From the UHGV virus genome UHGV-0019118: a stretch of 31,495 nucleotides of DNA; one strand, given 5' to 3'. The notes below the pieces were generated by a model. The model ran no database searches, was not told the DNA's origin, and was given only the letters and a program-made list of their open reading frames with translations. Each line of letters begins with the position of its first letter. Positions within the stretch are counted from its first letter, which is position 1. The translations under genes were made by a program, and so were the position numbers. Shown here piece by piece: positions 1-31,331 of this stretch. This stretch comes from a virus.

Positions 1-78
1 GCTGTTCGTAAAGCTAAACTGTACTACCTGCGTGAGCGTACTGGTAAGGCTGCTCGTATCAAAGAGCGTCTTAACTGA
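1..78 (+). CDS. rplS: 50S ribosomal protein L19, 3' end (partial; window starts inside the gene)
   Basis: Frame 1 translates to [25 protein letters not shown], which matches my memory of the E. coli L19 C-terminus; stop TGA at 76-78. Confidence 0.85.
   Translation, partial: [25 protein letters not shown]
64..76. repeat. attL core (direct repeat gagcgtcttaact) overlapping the last codons of rplS
   Basis: Exact 13-mer also at 31319-31331; flanks on the phage side resemble the displaced host 3' flank only imperfectly. Confidence 0.7.
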
Positions 79-117
79 TAACGCATTCACGCTACATCCA
101 AAGCGTGTTGTAAAACA

Positions 118-148
118 AGGGGTTGGCGAATCGCCGACCCCTTTTTTA
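118..148. terminator. Rho-independent terminator supplied by the prophage downstream of rplS (also 3' of ogr on the other strand)
   Basis: GC-rich hairpin ggggttggcga/tcgccgacccc followed by a TTTTTT run; an A-run precedes it, so it can act in both directions. Confidence 0.6.
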
Positions 149-183
149 TTGGCGGTGGCGGCAAATTGGCGGCAGAAGCAGGT

Positions 184-402
184 TTAAAGCCAAAGTTGCT
201 GTTGTTGGTTCCTGATGGGGTGGGGCGGAGCAGGATCAACAGTACCCGGTTTCACAATGAATCTTGATAGCGTCTCAAAAGTGATAAATGTACATCCGCA
301 ATTTATGTTCTGGCACTGGTGATAACGTTCTTTTGTTTCGGCGCTAAGGTACCGGCTAGTGCGAGCATGTGCGGCGTTTTGGCATAACGGGCAGTGCATC
401 AT
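184..402 (-). CDS. ogr: Ogr/Delta-type zinc-finger late-gene transcription activator
   Basis: 72 aa; MMHCPLCQNAAHARTSRYLSAETKERYHQCQNINC matches the P2 Ogr Cys4 zinc-finger pattern; located at the attL end as in the P2 prophage. Confidence 0.9.
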   Translation of the reverse strand: MMHCPLCQNAAHARTSRYLSAETKERYHQCQNINCGCTFITFETLSRFIVKPGTVDPAPPHPIRNQQQQLWL

Positions 403-477
403 AATTATTCCCCCTGCTGGCGTATCTGAGGGAATAATAAACCCTAAGGTTGCATTTGCAAGTTTTGATTTGCTTTT

Positions 478-1647
478 TCAGTTTTCACTTTCCTCTGAGC
501 TGTACTCCACATCGGAGAGCTTAACCTCAAGCTCTAAGCCCGTCGTGAATCCATTATTATTCAGATTGTGAGTTACCTTACTGATTAACCAAGACTGCTC
601 GTCTATGACGCGCTTAAAGCCTGACACACGCACCGGTATCTCAGGGAATAAATCAGCCCTACCAAGCGCCAGCGTAATTGAAAACTCCGCAACGCCTCGC
701 TGTAGCTTATCCCACTTAGCCTGAGCGGCGCGCATCGCCTGCGCCTTAGAAGCGTAGACAGTCGTCAGCGCCAGCACGTTATCGGCCTCACCGGCCATAT
801 ACTCACCCTCGCGCGCCTCCGGCTCTTTTTTGGCCTTTGTCTTTTTGCTAACCGGCTTTGCTTTCGGGTGCTCCAGTGCGCGCAGGTGCTTCTCTTTTGG
901 CTTACGTTTCAGTGTTACTTTCTGCTTTTGCAGCTTCGGGTCTTTAGTATGCAACCATTTTGCTGTTACGCCGGTGTAAGCCCCACGGTCAGCAATGGCA
1001 AACTGATGACGGTCGCCATCGCTGCGGGTCAGCGTCATTTGCGGGACGGGCTTGCCGCTGGCGGTCATTGCACTACCGGCTTTCAGAAACAGGAGCTTAC
1101 CTGCCTTCACTGACACCGCCGCCCCATTGCGGTCAGCCAACCGGGTCAGAAATACGGCGTCGGACTCCTGCGACTGGTCGATATGCGGTACCGGTATTTT
1201 TTTCAGTGAATCCGCGACACTGGCCGTCAGTTTATTGCGCTTTGCAATGGTGCTGACCAGCTCACCGAGGGTGGTGTCATGCCATGACTCTTCACGCCGT
1301 GAATTGAGTGTTCCCCGAAAATCTGCACTACGCGCCCGGATGGTCAGGGTATCAGGCGCGCCCCGGTGCTCAATCTCATCGACCGTGAAATCTCCCTTAT
1401 TCAGAAGCGCCGAACCCTGCCAGCCAAGCCACAGCGTCAGCACCGCCCCGCGCAGAGGTAACTCGACTTTGCCGTCGGTATCGTCGAGCTCAATGTCAAG
1501 CTGGTCAGCCTCAAAGCCCCGGTTGTCTGTCATGGTGAGAGAAATCAGTCGGTCACTAAAATTACTGGTAATGTCCTGGCTGTTCAGCGTCAGCATAAAT
1601 GCCGGTGCAAGGCTGGTACCGGCGTCAATGGTCATGCCCGTAATCAT
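478..1647 (-). CDS. D: Tail protein D (late tail gene D)
   Basis: 389 aa, size and position as P2 gpD at the end of the FI-FII-E-T-U-D operon; 4-bp overlap with U. Confidence 0.8.
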   Translation of the reverse strand: MITGMTIDAGTSLAPAFMLTLNSQDITSNFSDRLISLTMTDNRGFEADQLDIELDDTDGKVELPLRGAVLTLWLGWQGSALLNKGDFTVDEIEHRGAPDTLTIRARSADFRGTLNSRREESWHDTTLGELVSTIAKRNKLTASVADSLKKIPVPHIDQSQESDAVFLTRLADRNGAAVSVKAGKLLFLKAGSAMTASGKPVPQMTLTRSDGDRHQFAIADRGAYTGVTAKWLHTKDPKLQKQKVTLKRKPKEKHLRALEHPKAKPVSKKTKAKKEPEAREGEYMAGEADNVLALTTVYASKAQAMRAAQAKWDKLQRGVAEFSITLALGRADLFPEIPVRVSGFKRVIDEQSWLISKVTHNLNNNGFTTGLELEVKLSDVEYSSEESEN

Positions 1648-29816: not shown

Positions 29817-29825
29817 GGAGCTGTA

Positions 29826-30164
29826 ATGAAAAAGTATTTATTAATGATGGTCTGTTTCGCACTTTCTTCATCAGCCTTAGCCGCAGAGAAGTTTAAAGAG
29901 ATTGATAGTAAATCTTTTGGTGATAAATGGCCGCTGACCTTTGAGCATGCAAAAGTATCCTGTGTAAATAGTCACTACGTTTTTGTTTATGACATTGATA
30001 CGGATGAACGCTATCCCTTAAGCGGCATGGCTAAGAACGCCGTCAAGTCTGGAAAAATGGAAGGGCGAGATTTAAAAGAAGTGCTAAAAAAAGACCCTAA
30101 CGATCCATTAGAACGAGCTGATATTGCTCCTGTTTTCAGTGAAGCCATAGCGCTTTGTGAATAA
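29826..30164 (+). CDS. Small secreted protein (signal peptide), AT-rich cargo gene between cI and int
   Basis: MKKYLLMMVCFALSSSALA-AEKF: signal peptide with an Ala-x-Ala cleavage site; two Cys in the mature part; AAGGAG 6 nt upstream of the ATG. Confidence 0.6.
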   Translation: MKKYLLMMVCFALSSSALAAEKFKEIDSKSFGDKWPLTFEHAKVSCVNSHYVFVYDIDTDERYPLSGMAKNAVKSGKMEGRDLKEVLKKDPNDPLERADIAPVFSEAIALCE

Positions 30165-30187
30165 AAAAATTCGGCCTCGGTGTAGCT

Positions 30188-31237
30188 ATGACAGTTAGTA
30201 AGCAAAAAAATGGCAAATGGTTATGCGAGCTCTATCCAAATGGTCGAGAAGGGCGGCGTATACGTCGGCAATTCAATACCAAAGGTGAGGCCGAGGCATT
30301 TGAAGCATTTACCAAAAGCGAGAGTGAAGATAAGCCGTGGCTCGGCAAGAAAGAAGACCGCCGACGCTTAAGCGAGATTATTCAGCTTTGGCACAATTTG
30401 CACGGTCAAGCGTTAGTCGCCAGTAAGTCGAGGTTTGCAAAGCTTCAAATCGTATGTAATGGACTTGGTGACCCGATTGCATCTCGCCTTACCGCGAAAG
30501 ACTGGGCTCATTATCGTGACCGTCGATTACGTGGTGAAATAGACAACGGTTATCATAAAGACCCCTCGAAATGGATCGCCAAACCTATAACCGTCAATCG
30601 CGAACAGCAATACCTAGAAGCAGTGTTTAATGAGCTCCGCCGGTTAGGGGAGTGGAGCCTACCCAATCCACTTGATGGGATTCGAGTATTCAAAGAAGCT
30701 GAGAAAGAAATGTCCTGGCTAACTTTGTCTCAGCTCCCGGAGCTGTTTCGAGCCTGCGAGCAATACGGCAAAGAAGACCTCACCATGATTGTTAAGGTGT
30801 GCCTTGCAACCGGCGCTCGATGGGGGGAGGCGGAGAGATTGACCCGCCCTCAACTTTCTCCATATAAACTGACGTTCACCAAAACCAAAGGTAAGAAGAA
30901 TCGCACAGTTCCTATTCCTAAATGGCTGTACGACGAGTTGTCCGAACGTCAGGGCAGAATGTTTAAACCCTGCTATCAGGAGTTTAAAAAGATGCTCAAA
31001 CTAACGAATATTGAATTGACGGAAGGGCAGAAGACGCACGTTTTGCGTCATACTTTTGGTGCGCATTTTATGATGAACGGCGGGAATATACTGGTACTGC
31101 AGAAAATTCTCGGGCATGCCAATATTCGAGAAACAATGAAGTATGCACACTTTGCTCCTGACCACCTTGAACAAGCTGTAACCCTCAATCCGTTATCGCT
31201 GTATGTTGGCGACAATGTGGCGGCAGAGGTTGCATAA
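30188..31237 (+). CDS. int: Tyrosine integrase
   Basis: 349 aa; C-terminal catalytic region HVLRHTFGAHFMMNGG...LGHANIRETMKYAHF; adjacent to attR. Confidence 0.9.
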   Translation: MTVSKQKNGKWLCELYPNGREGRRIRRQFNTKGEAEAFEAFTKSESEDKPWLGKKEDRRRLSEIIQLWHNLHGQALVASKSRFAKLQIVCNGLGDPIASRLTAKDWAHYRDRRLRGEIDNGYHKDPSKWIAKPITVNREQQYLEAVFNELRRLGEWSLPNPLDGIRVFKEAEKEMSWLTLSQLPELFRACEQYGKEDLTMIVKVCLATGARWGEAERLTRPQLSPYKLTFTKTKGKKNRTVPIPKWLYDELSERQGRMFKPCYQEFKKMLKLTNIELTEGQKTHVLRHTFGAHFMMNGGNILVLQKILGHANIRETMKYAHFAPDHLEQAVTLNPLSLYVGDNVAAEVA

Positions 31238-31318
31238 CACTGCAATTCACTGCATTAAAAATTACTTTAACTAGTTGTTTTATATGGTAAGTGTTTGTTC
31301 GCTGTGGGGTGTTAATAG

Positions 31319-31331
31319 GAGCGTCTTAACT
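31319..31331. repeat. attR core (direct repeat gagcgtcttaact) with the displaced original rplS tail and TAA stop (31332-31334)
   Basis: Exact copy of 64-76; aag agc gtc tta act-type codons continue in frame to ...ERLN*. Confidence 0.7.

What the first reader, a model, noticed from the sequence alone, without database searches (positions are those of the whole stretch)
64..31331. Prophage integrated into the 3' end of rplS, with the phage resupplying the gene tail and a terminator
The 13-bp direct repeat gagcgtcttaact overlaps the last four codons of rplS. At attL the phage supplies a new stop (TGA) and its own terminator hairpin, so L19 is unchanged (…KERLN*). The original stop (TAA) and native terminator are displaced to attR, next to a convergent OmpA-family gene. 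Integration into the end of an essential ribosomal-protein operon rather than a tRNA gene is notable, and the att pair gives exact excision junctions.
Basis: seen in the sequence. Interest (0 to 1): 0.45.

Follow-up and report, generated by a model that had tools for sequence, protein, structure and literature searches.

The report
P2-family prophage inserted in rplS tail
A 31-kb PsP3/186-type temperate phage sits in the last codons of the E. coli ribosomal protein L19 gene and brings its own copy of that gene's tail and terminator, so the gene is unharmed; this is a correct reading, but it is a known insertion site and a textbook mechanism.

Summary
The window is E. coli rplS (3' end), then a 31.2-kb PsP3/186-type P2-family prophage, then convergent yfiB. 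The 13-mer GAGCGTCTTAACT occurs exactly twice (64-76, 31319-31331). Joining the two flanks through one copy gives a 240-nt attB. It is uninterrupted over at least 80% of its length in 5297 of 5426 complete E. coli genomes and 100% identical full-length in sampled ones. The predicted attP is contiguous in free phages (PsP3, SI22/SW9, SEN1, Midge, RCIP0057). L19 is unchanged: the phage gives TGA (76-78) and a hairpin terminator (117-143). The native TAA and terminator lie at attR.

New here: the phage arm next to the core is a diverged copy of a native enterobacterial rplS 3' UTR (small hairpin plus terminator), not an arbitrary terminator. Integrases at least about 68% identical have an rplS-type core beside them in 24 of 27 species genomes, spanning at least 12 named genera.

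The site is already tabulated for a PsP3-like Salmonella prophage ("yfiN-rplS", PMC6449608). At least 63-68 complete E. coli genomes carry such a prophage. The principle is that of e14 at icd. This copy has a private 39-bp deletion in the P' arm. Ordinary; low interest.

The parts
1..78 (+). 3' end of host rplS (L19), ...[25 protein letters not shown]. The last 2 bases of the stop codon (77-78) are phage DNA.
64..76 (+). attL copy of the 13-bp identity segment (core) GAGCGTCTTAACT
   Evidence: identical attL in TUM14697 and DETEC-S565
76..81 (+). Phage-completed stop TGA followed by an in-frame TAA
88..107 (+). Phage-borne copy of the small rplS 3' UTR hairpin (CACGCT / loop ACATCCAA / AGCGTG)
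   Evidence: GC.ACATC is invariant in 21 native and phage tails
117..150 (+). Phage-borne intrinsic terminator (12-pair stem 117-143 plus T-run). It now terminates rplS. In the free phage it lies between convergent int and pag.
156..174 (+). P' arm: two direct TGGCGGCA repeats (156-163, 167-174), candidate arm-type Int sites. A third repeat present in relatives is deleted here.
174..177 (.). Junction of a private 39-bp deletion (GA microhomology). It removes GAGATTGGCGCGATGGCGACAGATATAAAAAAACCTGCC, which holds the third arm repeat and half of the pag terminator.
   Evidence: against 28
184..402 (-). pag/ogr-type zinc-finger late-gene activator
478..11213 (-). Tail and baseplate genes in P2 order: D, U, T (tape measure), E, FII, FI, G, H, I, J, W, V
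11402..12265 (+). Low-GC cargo ORF (287 aa) at a variable spot between V and S; weak PD-T4-7 match
12322..18092 (-). S, R, lysis genes, X, L, M, N (capsid), O (scaffold)
18258..21792 (+). Terminase ATPase P (18258-20027), extra 248-aa terminase-N-like ORF (20027-20773), portal Q (20770-21792)
21840..23075 (-). Low-GC cargo: 411-aa STAND/AAA NTPase at the variable spot beyond the portal gene
24786..27008 (-). Replication initiator gpA
27950..29816 (.). Lysis-lysogeny switch: CII (27950-28489, -), Apl/Cox analogue (28492-28863, -), CI repressor (28977-29816, +)
29826..30164 (+). DUF2511 ORF between cI and int
30188..31237 (+). Tyrosine integrase (Int_N arm-binding domain plus catalytic domain; motifs ARWGE, HVLRH, LGH...KYAH)
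31207..31225 (+). P arm: two direct repeats TGGCGACA (31207-14) and TGGCGGCA (31218-25), inside the int 3' end. In DETEC-S565 the same pair lies outside int.
31319..31331 (+). attR copy of the 13-bp core
31331..31398 (+). Displaced native rplS tail: TAA stop (31331-33), small hairpin, native terminator (31359-31390) plus T-run
31409..31495 (-). 3' end of convergent host gene yfiB (OmpA family): ...AVVITTP*

Best explanation
A PsP3/186-type P2-family temperate phage (Peduoviridae, Eganvirus-like) has integrated by its own tyrosine integrase into attB at the very end of E. coli rplS.

Strand exchange took place inside the 13-bp identity segment GAGCGTCTTAACT. This segment spans the last four L19 codons and the first base of the stop codon.

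In the free phage, attP is arranged as follows:
- int
- two TGGCGRCA arm repeats
- the core
- an approximately 75-nt diverged copy of an enterobacterial rplS 3' UTR (stop codon, small ACAUCC-loop hairpin, GC-rich terminator)
- three further arm repeats
- pag on the opposite strand, convergent with int

After integration:
- rplS reads through the core into the phage copy. L19 is unchanged, the stop is TGA, and transcription ends at the phage hairpin.
- The native TAA, 3' UTR and terminator are moved 31 kb away, to a position behind int and in front of convergent yfiB.

What is shown: the junctions, the empty site, a contiguous attP, the homology of the phage tail to native tails, and conservation of the target across integrase relatives.

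What is inferred: which 7 bp form the overlap region, that TGGCGRCA repeats are Int arm sites, that the phage terminator works in vivo, and that this copy can still excise.
For: Repeat and junctions.

Empty site: the 240-nt attB is uninterrupted over at least 80% of its length in 5297 of 5426 complete E. coli genomes, sampled hits are 100% identical full-length, and the site is annotated rplS|yfiB. The right-junction match starts at 31319.

Phage identity: Pfam hits to P2 D, U, T, E, FII, FI, G, H, I, J, gpA, CI, CII, the terminase, the portal and Int. The window is 90-93% identical over 74-80% of 25 kb to SI22, SW9, PsP3, SEN1, Midge and 186.

attP: contiguous in PsP3, SI22/SW9, SEN1, Midge and RCIP0057 over 100% of the reconstructed 613 nt. 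PsP3 and SI22 share the same core; Midge and RCIP0057 have a synonymous CTG variant.

Phage tail is homologous to native tails:
- Local alignment scores of 73-76 for SI22, Midge and RCIP0057 against the Pectobacterium flank (34-39 for the window's own arm and PsP3), against a shuffle mean of 13 and sd 2.
- Scores of 20-32 against E. coli, Enterobacter and Citrobacter, reached by at most 8 of 500 shuffles.
- Unoccupied trmD-rplS loci L091, L097 and L098 carry a native 3' UTR almost identical to the Midge and SI22 arm for about 50 nt.
- All 21 tails fold as small hairpin plus terminator.

Terminators.

Target conservation: 24 of the 27 genome loci whose integrase is at least about 68% identical, spanning at least 12 named genera, have an rplS-type core 60-104 nt after int, with no phage genes beyond it. 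None of the loci with integrases at 62% identity or less has a convincing one.

Arm repeats: 4 of 6 window hits lie in the arms, against 1.05 expected. They are conserved outside the int ORF in DETEC-S565.

Integrase: catalytic motifs are present.
Against: There is no experimental evidence of excision or phage production for this copy.

A private 39-bp deletion removes one of three P' arm repeats and the pag terminator. This could impair excisive recombination.

The identity segment with E. coli attB is only 13 bp in this lineage, against 17 in PsP3 and SI22.

Terminator function is predicted from sequence only.

The insert could have reached this strain by transfer of an already lysogenised chromosomal segment. 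That would not change the structure.
Confidence: 0.92

Rival explanations
1. The hairpin after the core is simply the phage's own terminator between convergent int and pag. Its service to rplS is a by-product, not a captured or maintained rplS tail.
For: In free phages the hairpin lies between convergent int and pag. It has an A-rich 5' side and could act in both directions.
Against: The whole stretch from core to T-run aligns with native rplS 3' UTRs. This includes the invariant GC.ACATC element and the small hairpin, neither of which has an obvious phage role. In intact relatives pag has its own separate terminator. The two roles are not exclusive.
Confidence: 0.1
2. The element is a grounded (excision-defective or otherwise defective) prophage. 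The att pair then marks a historical insertion rather than a usable excision site.
For: The 39-bp P' arm deletion is absent from all 63 E. coli genomes that carry this arm. Relatives at the same site are visibly decaying: IS21 sits in the capsid gene of DETEC-S565, and L095 is a remnant of about 5 kb.
Against: All P2-type structural, lysis, replication and switch genes are present as full-length ORFs, and the integrase has intact motifs. Two of three P' repeats and both P repeats remain. The insert is 31.2 kb, against 29.5-31.1 kb for the related free phages.
Confidence: 0.3
3. The 13-bp repeat is a chance match or a transposition-type target duplication, and the true boundaries lie elsewhere.
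For: None beyond the shortness of the repeat.
Against: 0 of 100 shuffles gave two copies. The empty-site sequence joins exactly through one copy. The core pre-exists in free-phage attP.
Confidence: 0.01

Closest known systems
Salmonella phage PsP3 and its relatives (SW9, SI22, SEN1; genus Eganvirus), and the Salmonella Pullorum prophage phiSPU2 listed at 'yfiN-rplS' (PMC6449608)
   Same: Same gene order and same integrase type. attP is 82-89% identical. PsP3 and SI22 share the identical core GAGCGTCTTAACT. The chromosomal locus is the same.
   Different: The host here is E. coli. In this lineage the phage side reads TGA directly after the core, so the identity with attB is 13 nt rather than 17. 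Cargo genes differ. This copy has a 39-bp deletion in the P' arm. The published entry calls the site intergenic and does not describe the replacement of the gene tail.
e14 and phage 21 at icd in E. coli (Hill et al. 1989, as summarised in PMC6379469 and PMC12540744)
   Same: A prophage inserts inside the 3' end of a protein-coding gene and carries a substitute 3' end, so the gene stays functional.
   Different: e14 replaces 163 bp of coding sequence and introduces an amino-acid change. Here only 4 codons plus the stop lie in the exchanged zone and the protein is unchanged. Most of the duplicated segment is 3' UTR and terminator.
tRNA-gene-targeting phages such as 186 (ileY), P22 (thrW) and HP1
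   Same: attP holds a copy of the 3' part of the target gene, and integration regenerates the gene.
   Different: The target here is an mRNA 3' end (ribosomal protein operon rpsP-rimM-trmD-rplS), not a tRNA. Phage 186 shares most of its genome with this prophage but has a different integrase and att module.
Group B Streptococcus prophages of integrase type GBSInt3 ('rplS-3' end', PMC7487436)
   Same: The same gene end is used as a prophage site in an unrelated host group.
   Different: The phages are unrelated and the att sequence is unrelated (GATTCCGGCAGGGGACAT). The sites arose independently.

Membership tests
P2-family temperate phage, 186/PsP3 type (Peduoviridae, Eganvirus-like) | P2-type late gene set and order (D-U-T-E-FII-FI-G-H-I-J-W-V ... 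L-M-N-O | P-Q) | tested here: met
   Pfam hits; RefSeq annotation of a 96-97% identical relative
P2-family temperate phage, 186/PsP3 type (Peduoviridae, Eganvirus-like) | gpA rolling-circle replication initiator and an Ogr/Pag zinc-finger late activator next to att | tested here: met
   PF05840, E 2e-130; phrog_603 and the PsP3 Pag annotation
P2-family temperate phage, 186/PsP3 type (Peduoviridae, Eganvirus-like) | 186-type switch (CI with Phage_CI_repr, CII/CP76) rather than the P2 C/Cox switch | tested here: met
   PF07022, PF16452 and PF06892. The Apl/Cox analogue matches phrog_3554 and only weakly matches a Cox-like family. This agrees with the published remark that the PsP3 protein is a singleton.
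P2-family temperate phage, 186/PsP3 type (Peduoviridae, Eganvirus-like) | High nucleotide identity to type members | tested here: met
   90-93% identity over 74-80% of 25 kb to SW9, SI22, PsP3, SEN1 and 186
P2-family temperate phage, 186/PsP3 type (Peduoviridae, Eganvirus-like) | Viability (inducible, forms virions) | not testable with these tools
   All expected ORFs are full length, but there is a 39-bp arm deletion
Lambda-Int-type tyrosine integrase with arm-binding domain | Catalytic domain with R...HxxR...H...Y, plus an N-terminal arm-binding domain | tested here: met
   PF00589 and PF24624; ARWGE, HVLRH and LGHANIRETMKYAH by inspection
Lambda-Int-type tyrosine integrase with arm-binding domain | Arm-type repeats on both sides of the core in attP | tested here: inconclusive
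   TGGCG[AG]CA direct repeats occur at 31207 and 31218 (P arm) and at 156 and 167 (P' arm), with one more in relatives. They are enriched and conserved, even outside int. Binding was not tested.
Insertion that regenerates the 3' end of its target gene (attP carrying a duplicate of the target's end) | Identity segment at both junctions, a single copy in the empty site, and a contiguous attP in the free element | tested here: met
Insertion that regenerates the 3' end of its target gene (attP carrying a duplicate of the target's end) | The target gene product is unchanged in the lysogen | tested here: met
   Translation; the same L19 accession in occupied and empty genomes
Insertion that regenerates the 3' end of its target gene (attP carrying a duplicate of the target's end) | The element-borne segment is homologous to the displaced host segment | tested here: met

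The most novel reading that the evidence does not exclude
The small hairpin with the invariant GC.ACAUC(C) element between the rplS stop codon and its terminator may be a functional RNA element of the rpsP-rimM-trmD-rplS operon, for example a stability or processing signal or a 3'-UTR-derived small RNA. The element is conserved in all 21 tails compared (native tails from 10 named genera plus three unoccupied metagenome loci, and every phage-borne copy), even though the stems differ. On this reading, phages that target rplS must carry a working copy of it. The phage copies would then be natural swap experiments for that element. Alternatively, the element may be part of what the integrase recognises in attB.
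Probability: 0.15. Interest if true: 0.5.

Novelty: new member of a known kind. Interest (0 to 1): 0.25.

Why it matters
It gives clean, verified att junctions for annotating this prophage. It also documents a recurrent prophage site in Enterobacterales that is not a tRNA gene.

The added observation is modest. This integrase clade carries a diverged copy of the whole rplS 3' tail (stop codon, small hairpin, terminator) and keeps the same target in at least 12 named genera. This shows that the 'carry a spare gene end' rule extends to the untranslated end of an essential ribosomal-protein operon.

It does not open a new question. Its only forward-looking value is the conserved 3' UTR hairpin, whose function is unknown.

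Tried and rejected
1. An exact 33-nt scan of metagenome contigs for the Pectobacterium-type tail found nothing. The shorter 21-nt motif worked.
2. I dropped column-by-column covariation counting of the small hairpin. MAFFT places the stems in different registers in different lineages, so I folded each tail separately instead. This shows a shared architecture but is not a covariation test.
3. Rfam found nothing near any gathering score at either junction.
4. tblastn with E. coli YfiB found the gene only in the Escherichia locus among the integrase-relative loci. Downstream neighbours therefore differ between genera, and yfiB cannot be used as the marker of the site. I used the rplS-type core and the absence of phage genes instead.
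5. I took the roughly 129 E. coli genomes with a split attB as a possible count of lysogens and rejected it. At least one is an IS200/IS605 insertion after the terminator. The safer counts are 68 (attL), 63 (P' arm) and 48 (int plus attR).
6. Literature searches found no description of this site in E. coli and no known rplS 3' UTR element in enterobacteria. The library is incomplete, so this is weak evidence of absence.
7. I did not use the large protein searches or structure prediction. Nothing in the question depended on them.
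Full report
**Observation.** The 13-mer GAGCGTCTTAACT is present exactly twice in the 31,495-base window, at 64-76 and 31319-31331. There are no one-mismatch extras, and no shuffle out of 100 gave two copies.

- Frame 1 of bases 1-78 reads [25 protein letters not shown], the C-terminus of E. coli L19. The repeat therefore covers codons E-R-L-N and the first base of the stop codon.
- At the left junction the stop is TGA (76-78), followed in frame by TAA. A 12-pair GC-rich hairpin with a T-run follows at 117-143.
- At the right junction the core continues into TAA. 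A 14-pair hairpin with a T-run lies at 31359-31390. The end of a gene on the other strand (...AVVITTP*, stop at 31409-31411) is yfiB, an OmpA-family gene.

**Empty site.** I joined the left flank, one core and the right flank (240 nt) and searched 5,426 complete E. coli genomes.

- All 5,426 genomes match. In 5,297 of them one place covers at least 80% of the query, and sampled hits are 100% identical over all 240 nt. The site is annotated as rplS followed by convergent yfiB.
- In empty-site genomes the match to the right junction starts at window base 31319, the first base of the core.
- The host is therefore E. coli (or a very close relative). The repeats are the true boundaries, and the insert is 31,255 bp including one copy of the core (77-31331).
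- Not every split site is a prophage. One genome has an IS200/IS605 element inserted just after the terminator.
- Safer counts of similar lysogens are 68 genomes by attL, 63 by the phage arm alone, and 48 by int plus attR. This is about 1% of complete E. coli genomes.

**What the insert is.**

- Pfam assigns the ORFs to P2 D, U, tape measure, E, FII, FI, tail-fibre assembly, tail fibre, I, J, gpA, CI, CII, terminase, portal, and a tyrosine integrase with an N-terminal arm-binding domain.
- The first 25 kb is 90-93% identical over 74-80% of its length to Salmonella phages SI22, SW9, PsP3 and SEN1, to Escherichia phage Midge and to coliphage 186.
- The closest chromosomal relative found, in E. 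coli TUM14697, is 96-97% identical over the structural genes. It sits at the same site with an identical attL, including the TGA.
- The integrase has the expected motifs ARWGE, HVLRH and LGHANIRETMKYAH.
- All expected genes are full-length ORFs.
- GC content drops at two variable cargo spots.

**attP.**

- The attP predicted from the two junctions (613 nt) is contiguous over 100% of its length in the free phages SI22, SW9, SEN1, PsP3, Midge and RCIP0057, at 81-89% identity.
- PsP3 and SI22 have the same 13-mer, extended to GAGCGTCTTAACTAAGA. Midge and the Klebsiella phage RCIP0057 have GAGCGTCTGAACTAA, a synonymous Leu codon.
- The layout in the free phage is: int; two direct TGGCGRCA repeats; about 95 nt of spacer; the core; about 75 nt holding a small hairpin and the terminator; three more TGGCGRCA repeats; and pag on the other strand with its own terminator.
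- The motif TGGCG[AG]CA occurs six times on the + strand of the window, four of them in the two arms, against 1.05 expected.
- In E. coli DETEC-S565 a 1.2-kb AT-rich insert separates int from the P arm. The repeat pair is nevertheless conserved there, outside any ORF.
- I infer that these repeats are arm-type Int sites. Binding was not tested.

**The phage tail is a copy of an rplS tail.**

- The phage segment from the core to the T-run aligns with what lies to the right of the core in lysogens of other genera.
- Local alignment scores are 73-76 for SI22, Midge and RCIP0057 against the Pectobacterium flank, and 34-39 for the window's own arm and PsP3. Shuffles give a mean of 13 and an sd of 2.
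- Scores against E. coli, Enterobacter and Citrobacter are 20-32, reached by at most 8 of 500 shuffles. A Kosakonia flank gives no signal.
- Those right flanks contain no pag, gpD or arm repeats, so they are chromosomal.
- A metagenome scan with a 21-nt motif from this region returned three unoccupied trmD-rplS loci (L091, L097, L098; full-length L19, no phage genes). Their native 3' UTR, GAGCGTCTTAACTAAGAACGCGCTTTCGCAACATCCGAAAGCTTGTAGAAAAGAAGGGGCTGGC..., is almost identical to the SI22 and Midge arms for about 50 nt past the core.
- In an alignment of 21 tails (13 native, 8 phage-borne), GC.ACATC is invariant.
- Every tail folds as a small hairpin with that element in or next to its loop, followed by a strong terminator and a U-run.

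The phage thus carries a diverged copy of the whole rplS tail, as tRNA-targeting phages carry the 3' part of their tRNA.

**Target conservation.**

- A search of one genome per species for relatives of the integrase gave 80 loci.
- Of the 27 with at least about 68% identity, 24 have a CGxCTxAACTAA-type core 60-104 nt after the int stop. These come from Escherichia, Enterobacter, Yokenella, Citrobacter, Kluyvera, Pectobacterium, Atlantibacter, Franconibacter, Kosakonia, Brenneria, Pantoea, Chimaeribacter and Symbiopectobacterium, plus one unnamed proteobacterial metagenome-assembled genome.
- Among the 53 loci with 62% identity or less, none has a convincing core. The only pattern match is a weak, unrelated-looking sequence 227 nt after int in L067.
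- The attL ends of those lysogens could not be fetched, so rplS adjacency outside E. coli rests on the core, the following native-type tail and the metagenome loci.

**Mechanism.**

- Shown: an Int-type insertion through a 13-bp identity segment. L19 is left unchanged; RefSeq gives the same protein accession in occupied and empty genomes. The native tail is replaced by the phage-borne tail.
- Inferred: the 7-bp overlap lies inside AGCGTCTTAACT, the stretch common to all phage-host pairs seen. The phage hairpin terminates rplS transcription. The native hairpin now serves int and yfiB.

**A private defect.**

- Relative to TUM14697, to all free phages and to the other 62 E. coli genomes with this arm, the window lacks 39 bp (GAGATTGGCGCGATGGCGACAGATATAAAAAAACCTGCC). 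The junction is at 174-177 and has GA microhomology.
- The missing piece holds the third P' repeat and the left half of the pag terminator. That terminator is detected on the minus strand in TUM14697 and not in the window.
- Whether the deletion affects excision cannot be decided here. It could also be an assembly error.

**Comparison with what is known.**

- The locus is already listed for phiSPU2, a 31.1-kb PsP3-like (90%) P2-type prophage of Salmonella Pullorum, as 'yfiN-rplS' (PMC6449608).
- An earlier survey of P2-like integrases gives no site for PsP3 (PMC3448106).
- Replacement of a protein gene's 3' end by a prophage is classic for e14 at icd (PMC6379469; also PMC12540744).
- Group B Streptococcus prophages of one integrase type use 'rplS-3' end' with an unrelated att sequence (PMC7487436).
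- I found no paper describing the site in E. coli or the tail homology. The library is incomplete.

**Verdict.** This is a new member of a known kind and of low interest. The only loose thread of wider interest is the conserved small hairpin in the rplS 3' UTR, which the phage copies preserve. No Rfam family and no paper accounts for it.

Noticed in passing
window 174-177 (deletion junction); compare L087 172-214: A private 39-bp deletion in the P' arm. It removes the third TGGCGACA arm repeat and half of the pag terminator. It is absent from all 63 complete E. coli genomes that carry this arm and from all free phages compared.
   Followed up: yes
window 20027-20773 (+): An extra 248-aa ORF between the terminase ATPase gene and the portal gene. 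It matches Terminase_6N and phrog_3746 (profile positions 123-374 of 374). It is absent from the TUM14697 and DETEC-S565 prophages. SI22, SW9, Midge and EtG are annotated with two terminase genes. Its role is unknown.
   Followed up: partly
window 21840-23075 (-): A 411-aa STAND/AAA NTPase in a 36-37% GC stretch just beyond the portal gene. It matches nSTAND1 (E 1.5e-8), phrog_6841 strongly, and PADLOC candidate PDC-S59 weakly (E 9e-8). TUM14697 and DETEC-S565 carry two unrelated hypothetical genes at the same spot, so this is a variable cargo position, possibly for anti-phage defence.
   Followed up: partly
window 11402-12265 (+): A 287-aa ORF in a 42% GC stretch between baseplate gene V and tail gene S. 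It has no Pfam or PHROG hit and a weak partial PADLOC PD-T4-7 match (E 2e-9). TUM14697 has a pentapeptide-repeat protein there, and DETEC-S565 has nothing.
   Followed up: partly
window 88-107 and 31338-31356; alignment A1 columns 25-32: GC.ACATC is invariant in all 21 rplS tails compared (native tails from 10 named genera plus three unoccupied metagenome loci, and the phage copies). It sits in or beside the loop of a small hairpin whose stem sequence differs between lineages. No Rfam family or paper was found for it.
   Followed up: partly
L095 1-9455 (metagenome contig Ga0153917_1001499): A decayed remnant at the same site. It runs: rplS, core, phage-borne tail, gpV fragment, 612-aa AAA_15/AAA_21 ATPase, 390-aa ORF with no hits, truncated integrase (178 aa), then DUF2946, PepSY_TM and a convergent OmpA-family gene. 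The phage tail has become the permanent 3' end of rplS.
   Followed up: partly
L094 230-260 and L095 195-240: A second class of elements at rplS carries the same rplS-tail copy but different arm repeats (ATGTCCAC instead of TGGCGGCA). This suggests that the core-plus-tail module is shared between integrases with different arm specificity.
   Followed up: no
L099 (E. coli DETEC-S565), flipped coordinates 33693-34870: A 1.2-kb AT-rich insert with a 269-aa hypothetical gene lies between int and the P arm repeats. The same prophage has an IS21-family ISEc12 element in its major capsid gene and an invertible-looking tail-fibre region with a recombinase pseudogene.
   Followed up: no
L088 3137-3865 (E. 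coli MSB1_3B): An IS200/IS605 transposase is inserted directly after the native rplS terminator hairpin. Counts of 'split attB' therefore overestimate the number of lysogens.
   Followed up: yes
window 28977-29816 (+) and 29826-30164 (+): The CI repressor is 279 aa with two Phage_CI_repr helix-turn-helix stretches. A DUF2511 ORF sits between cI and int; it is conserved in several relatives from other genera.
   Followed up: no
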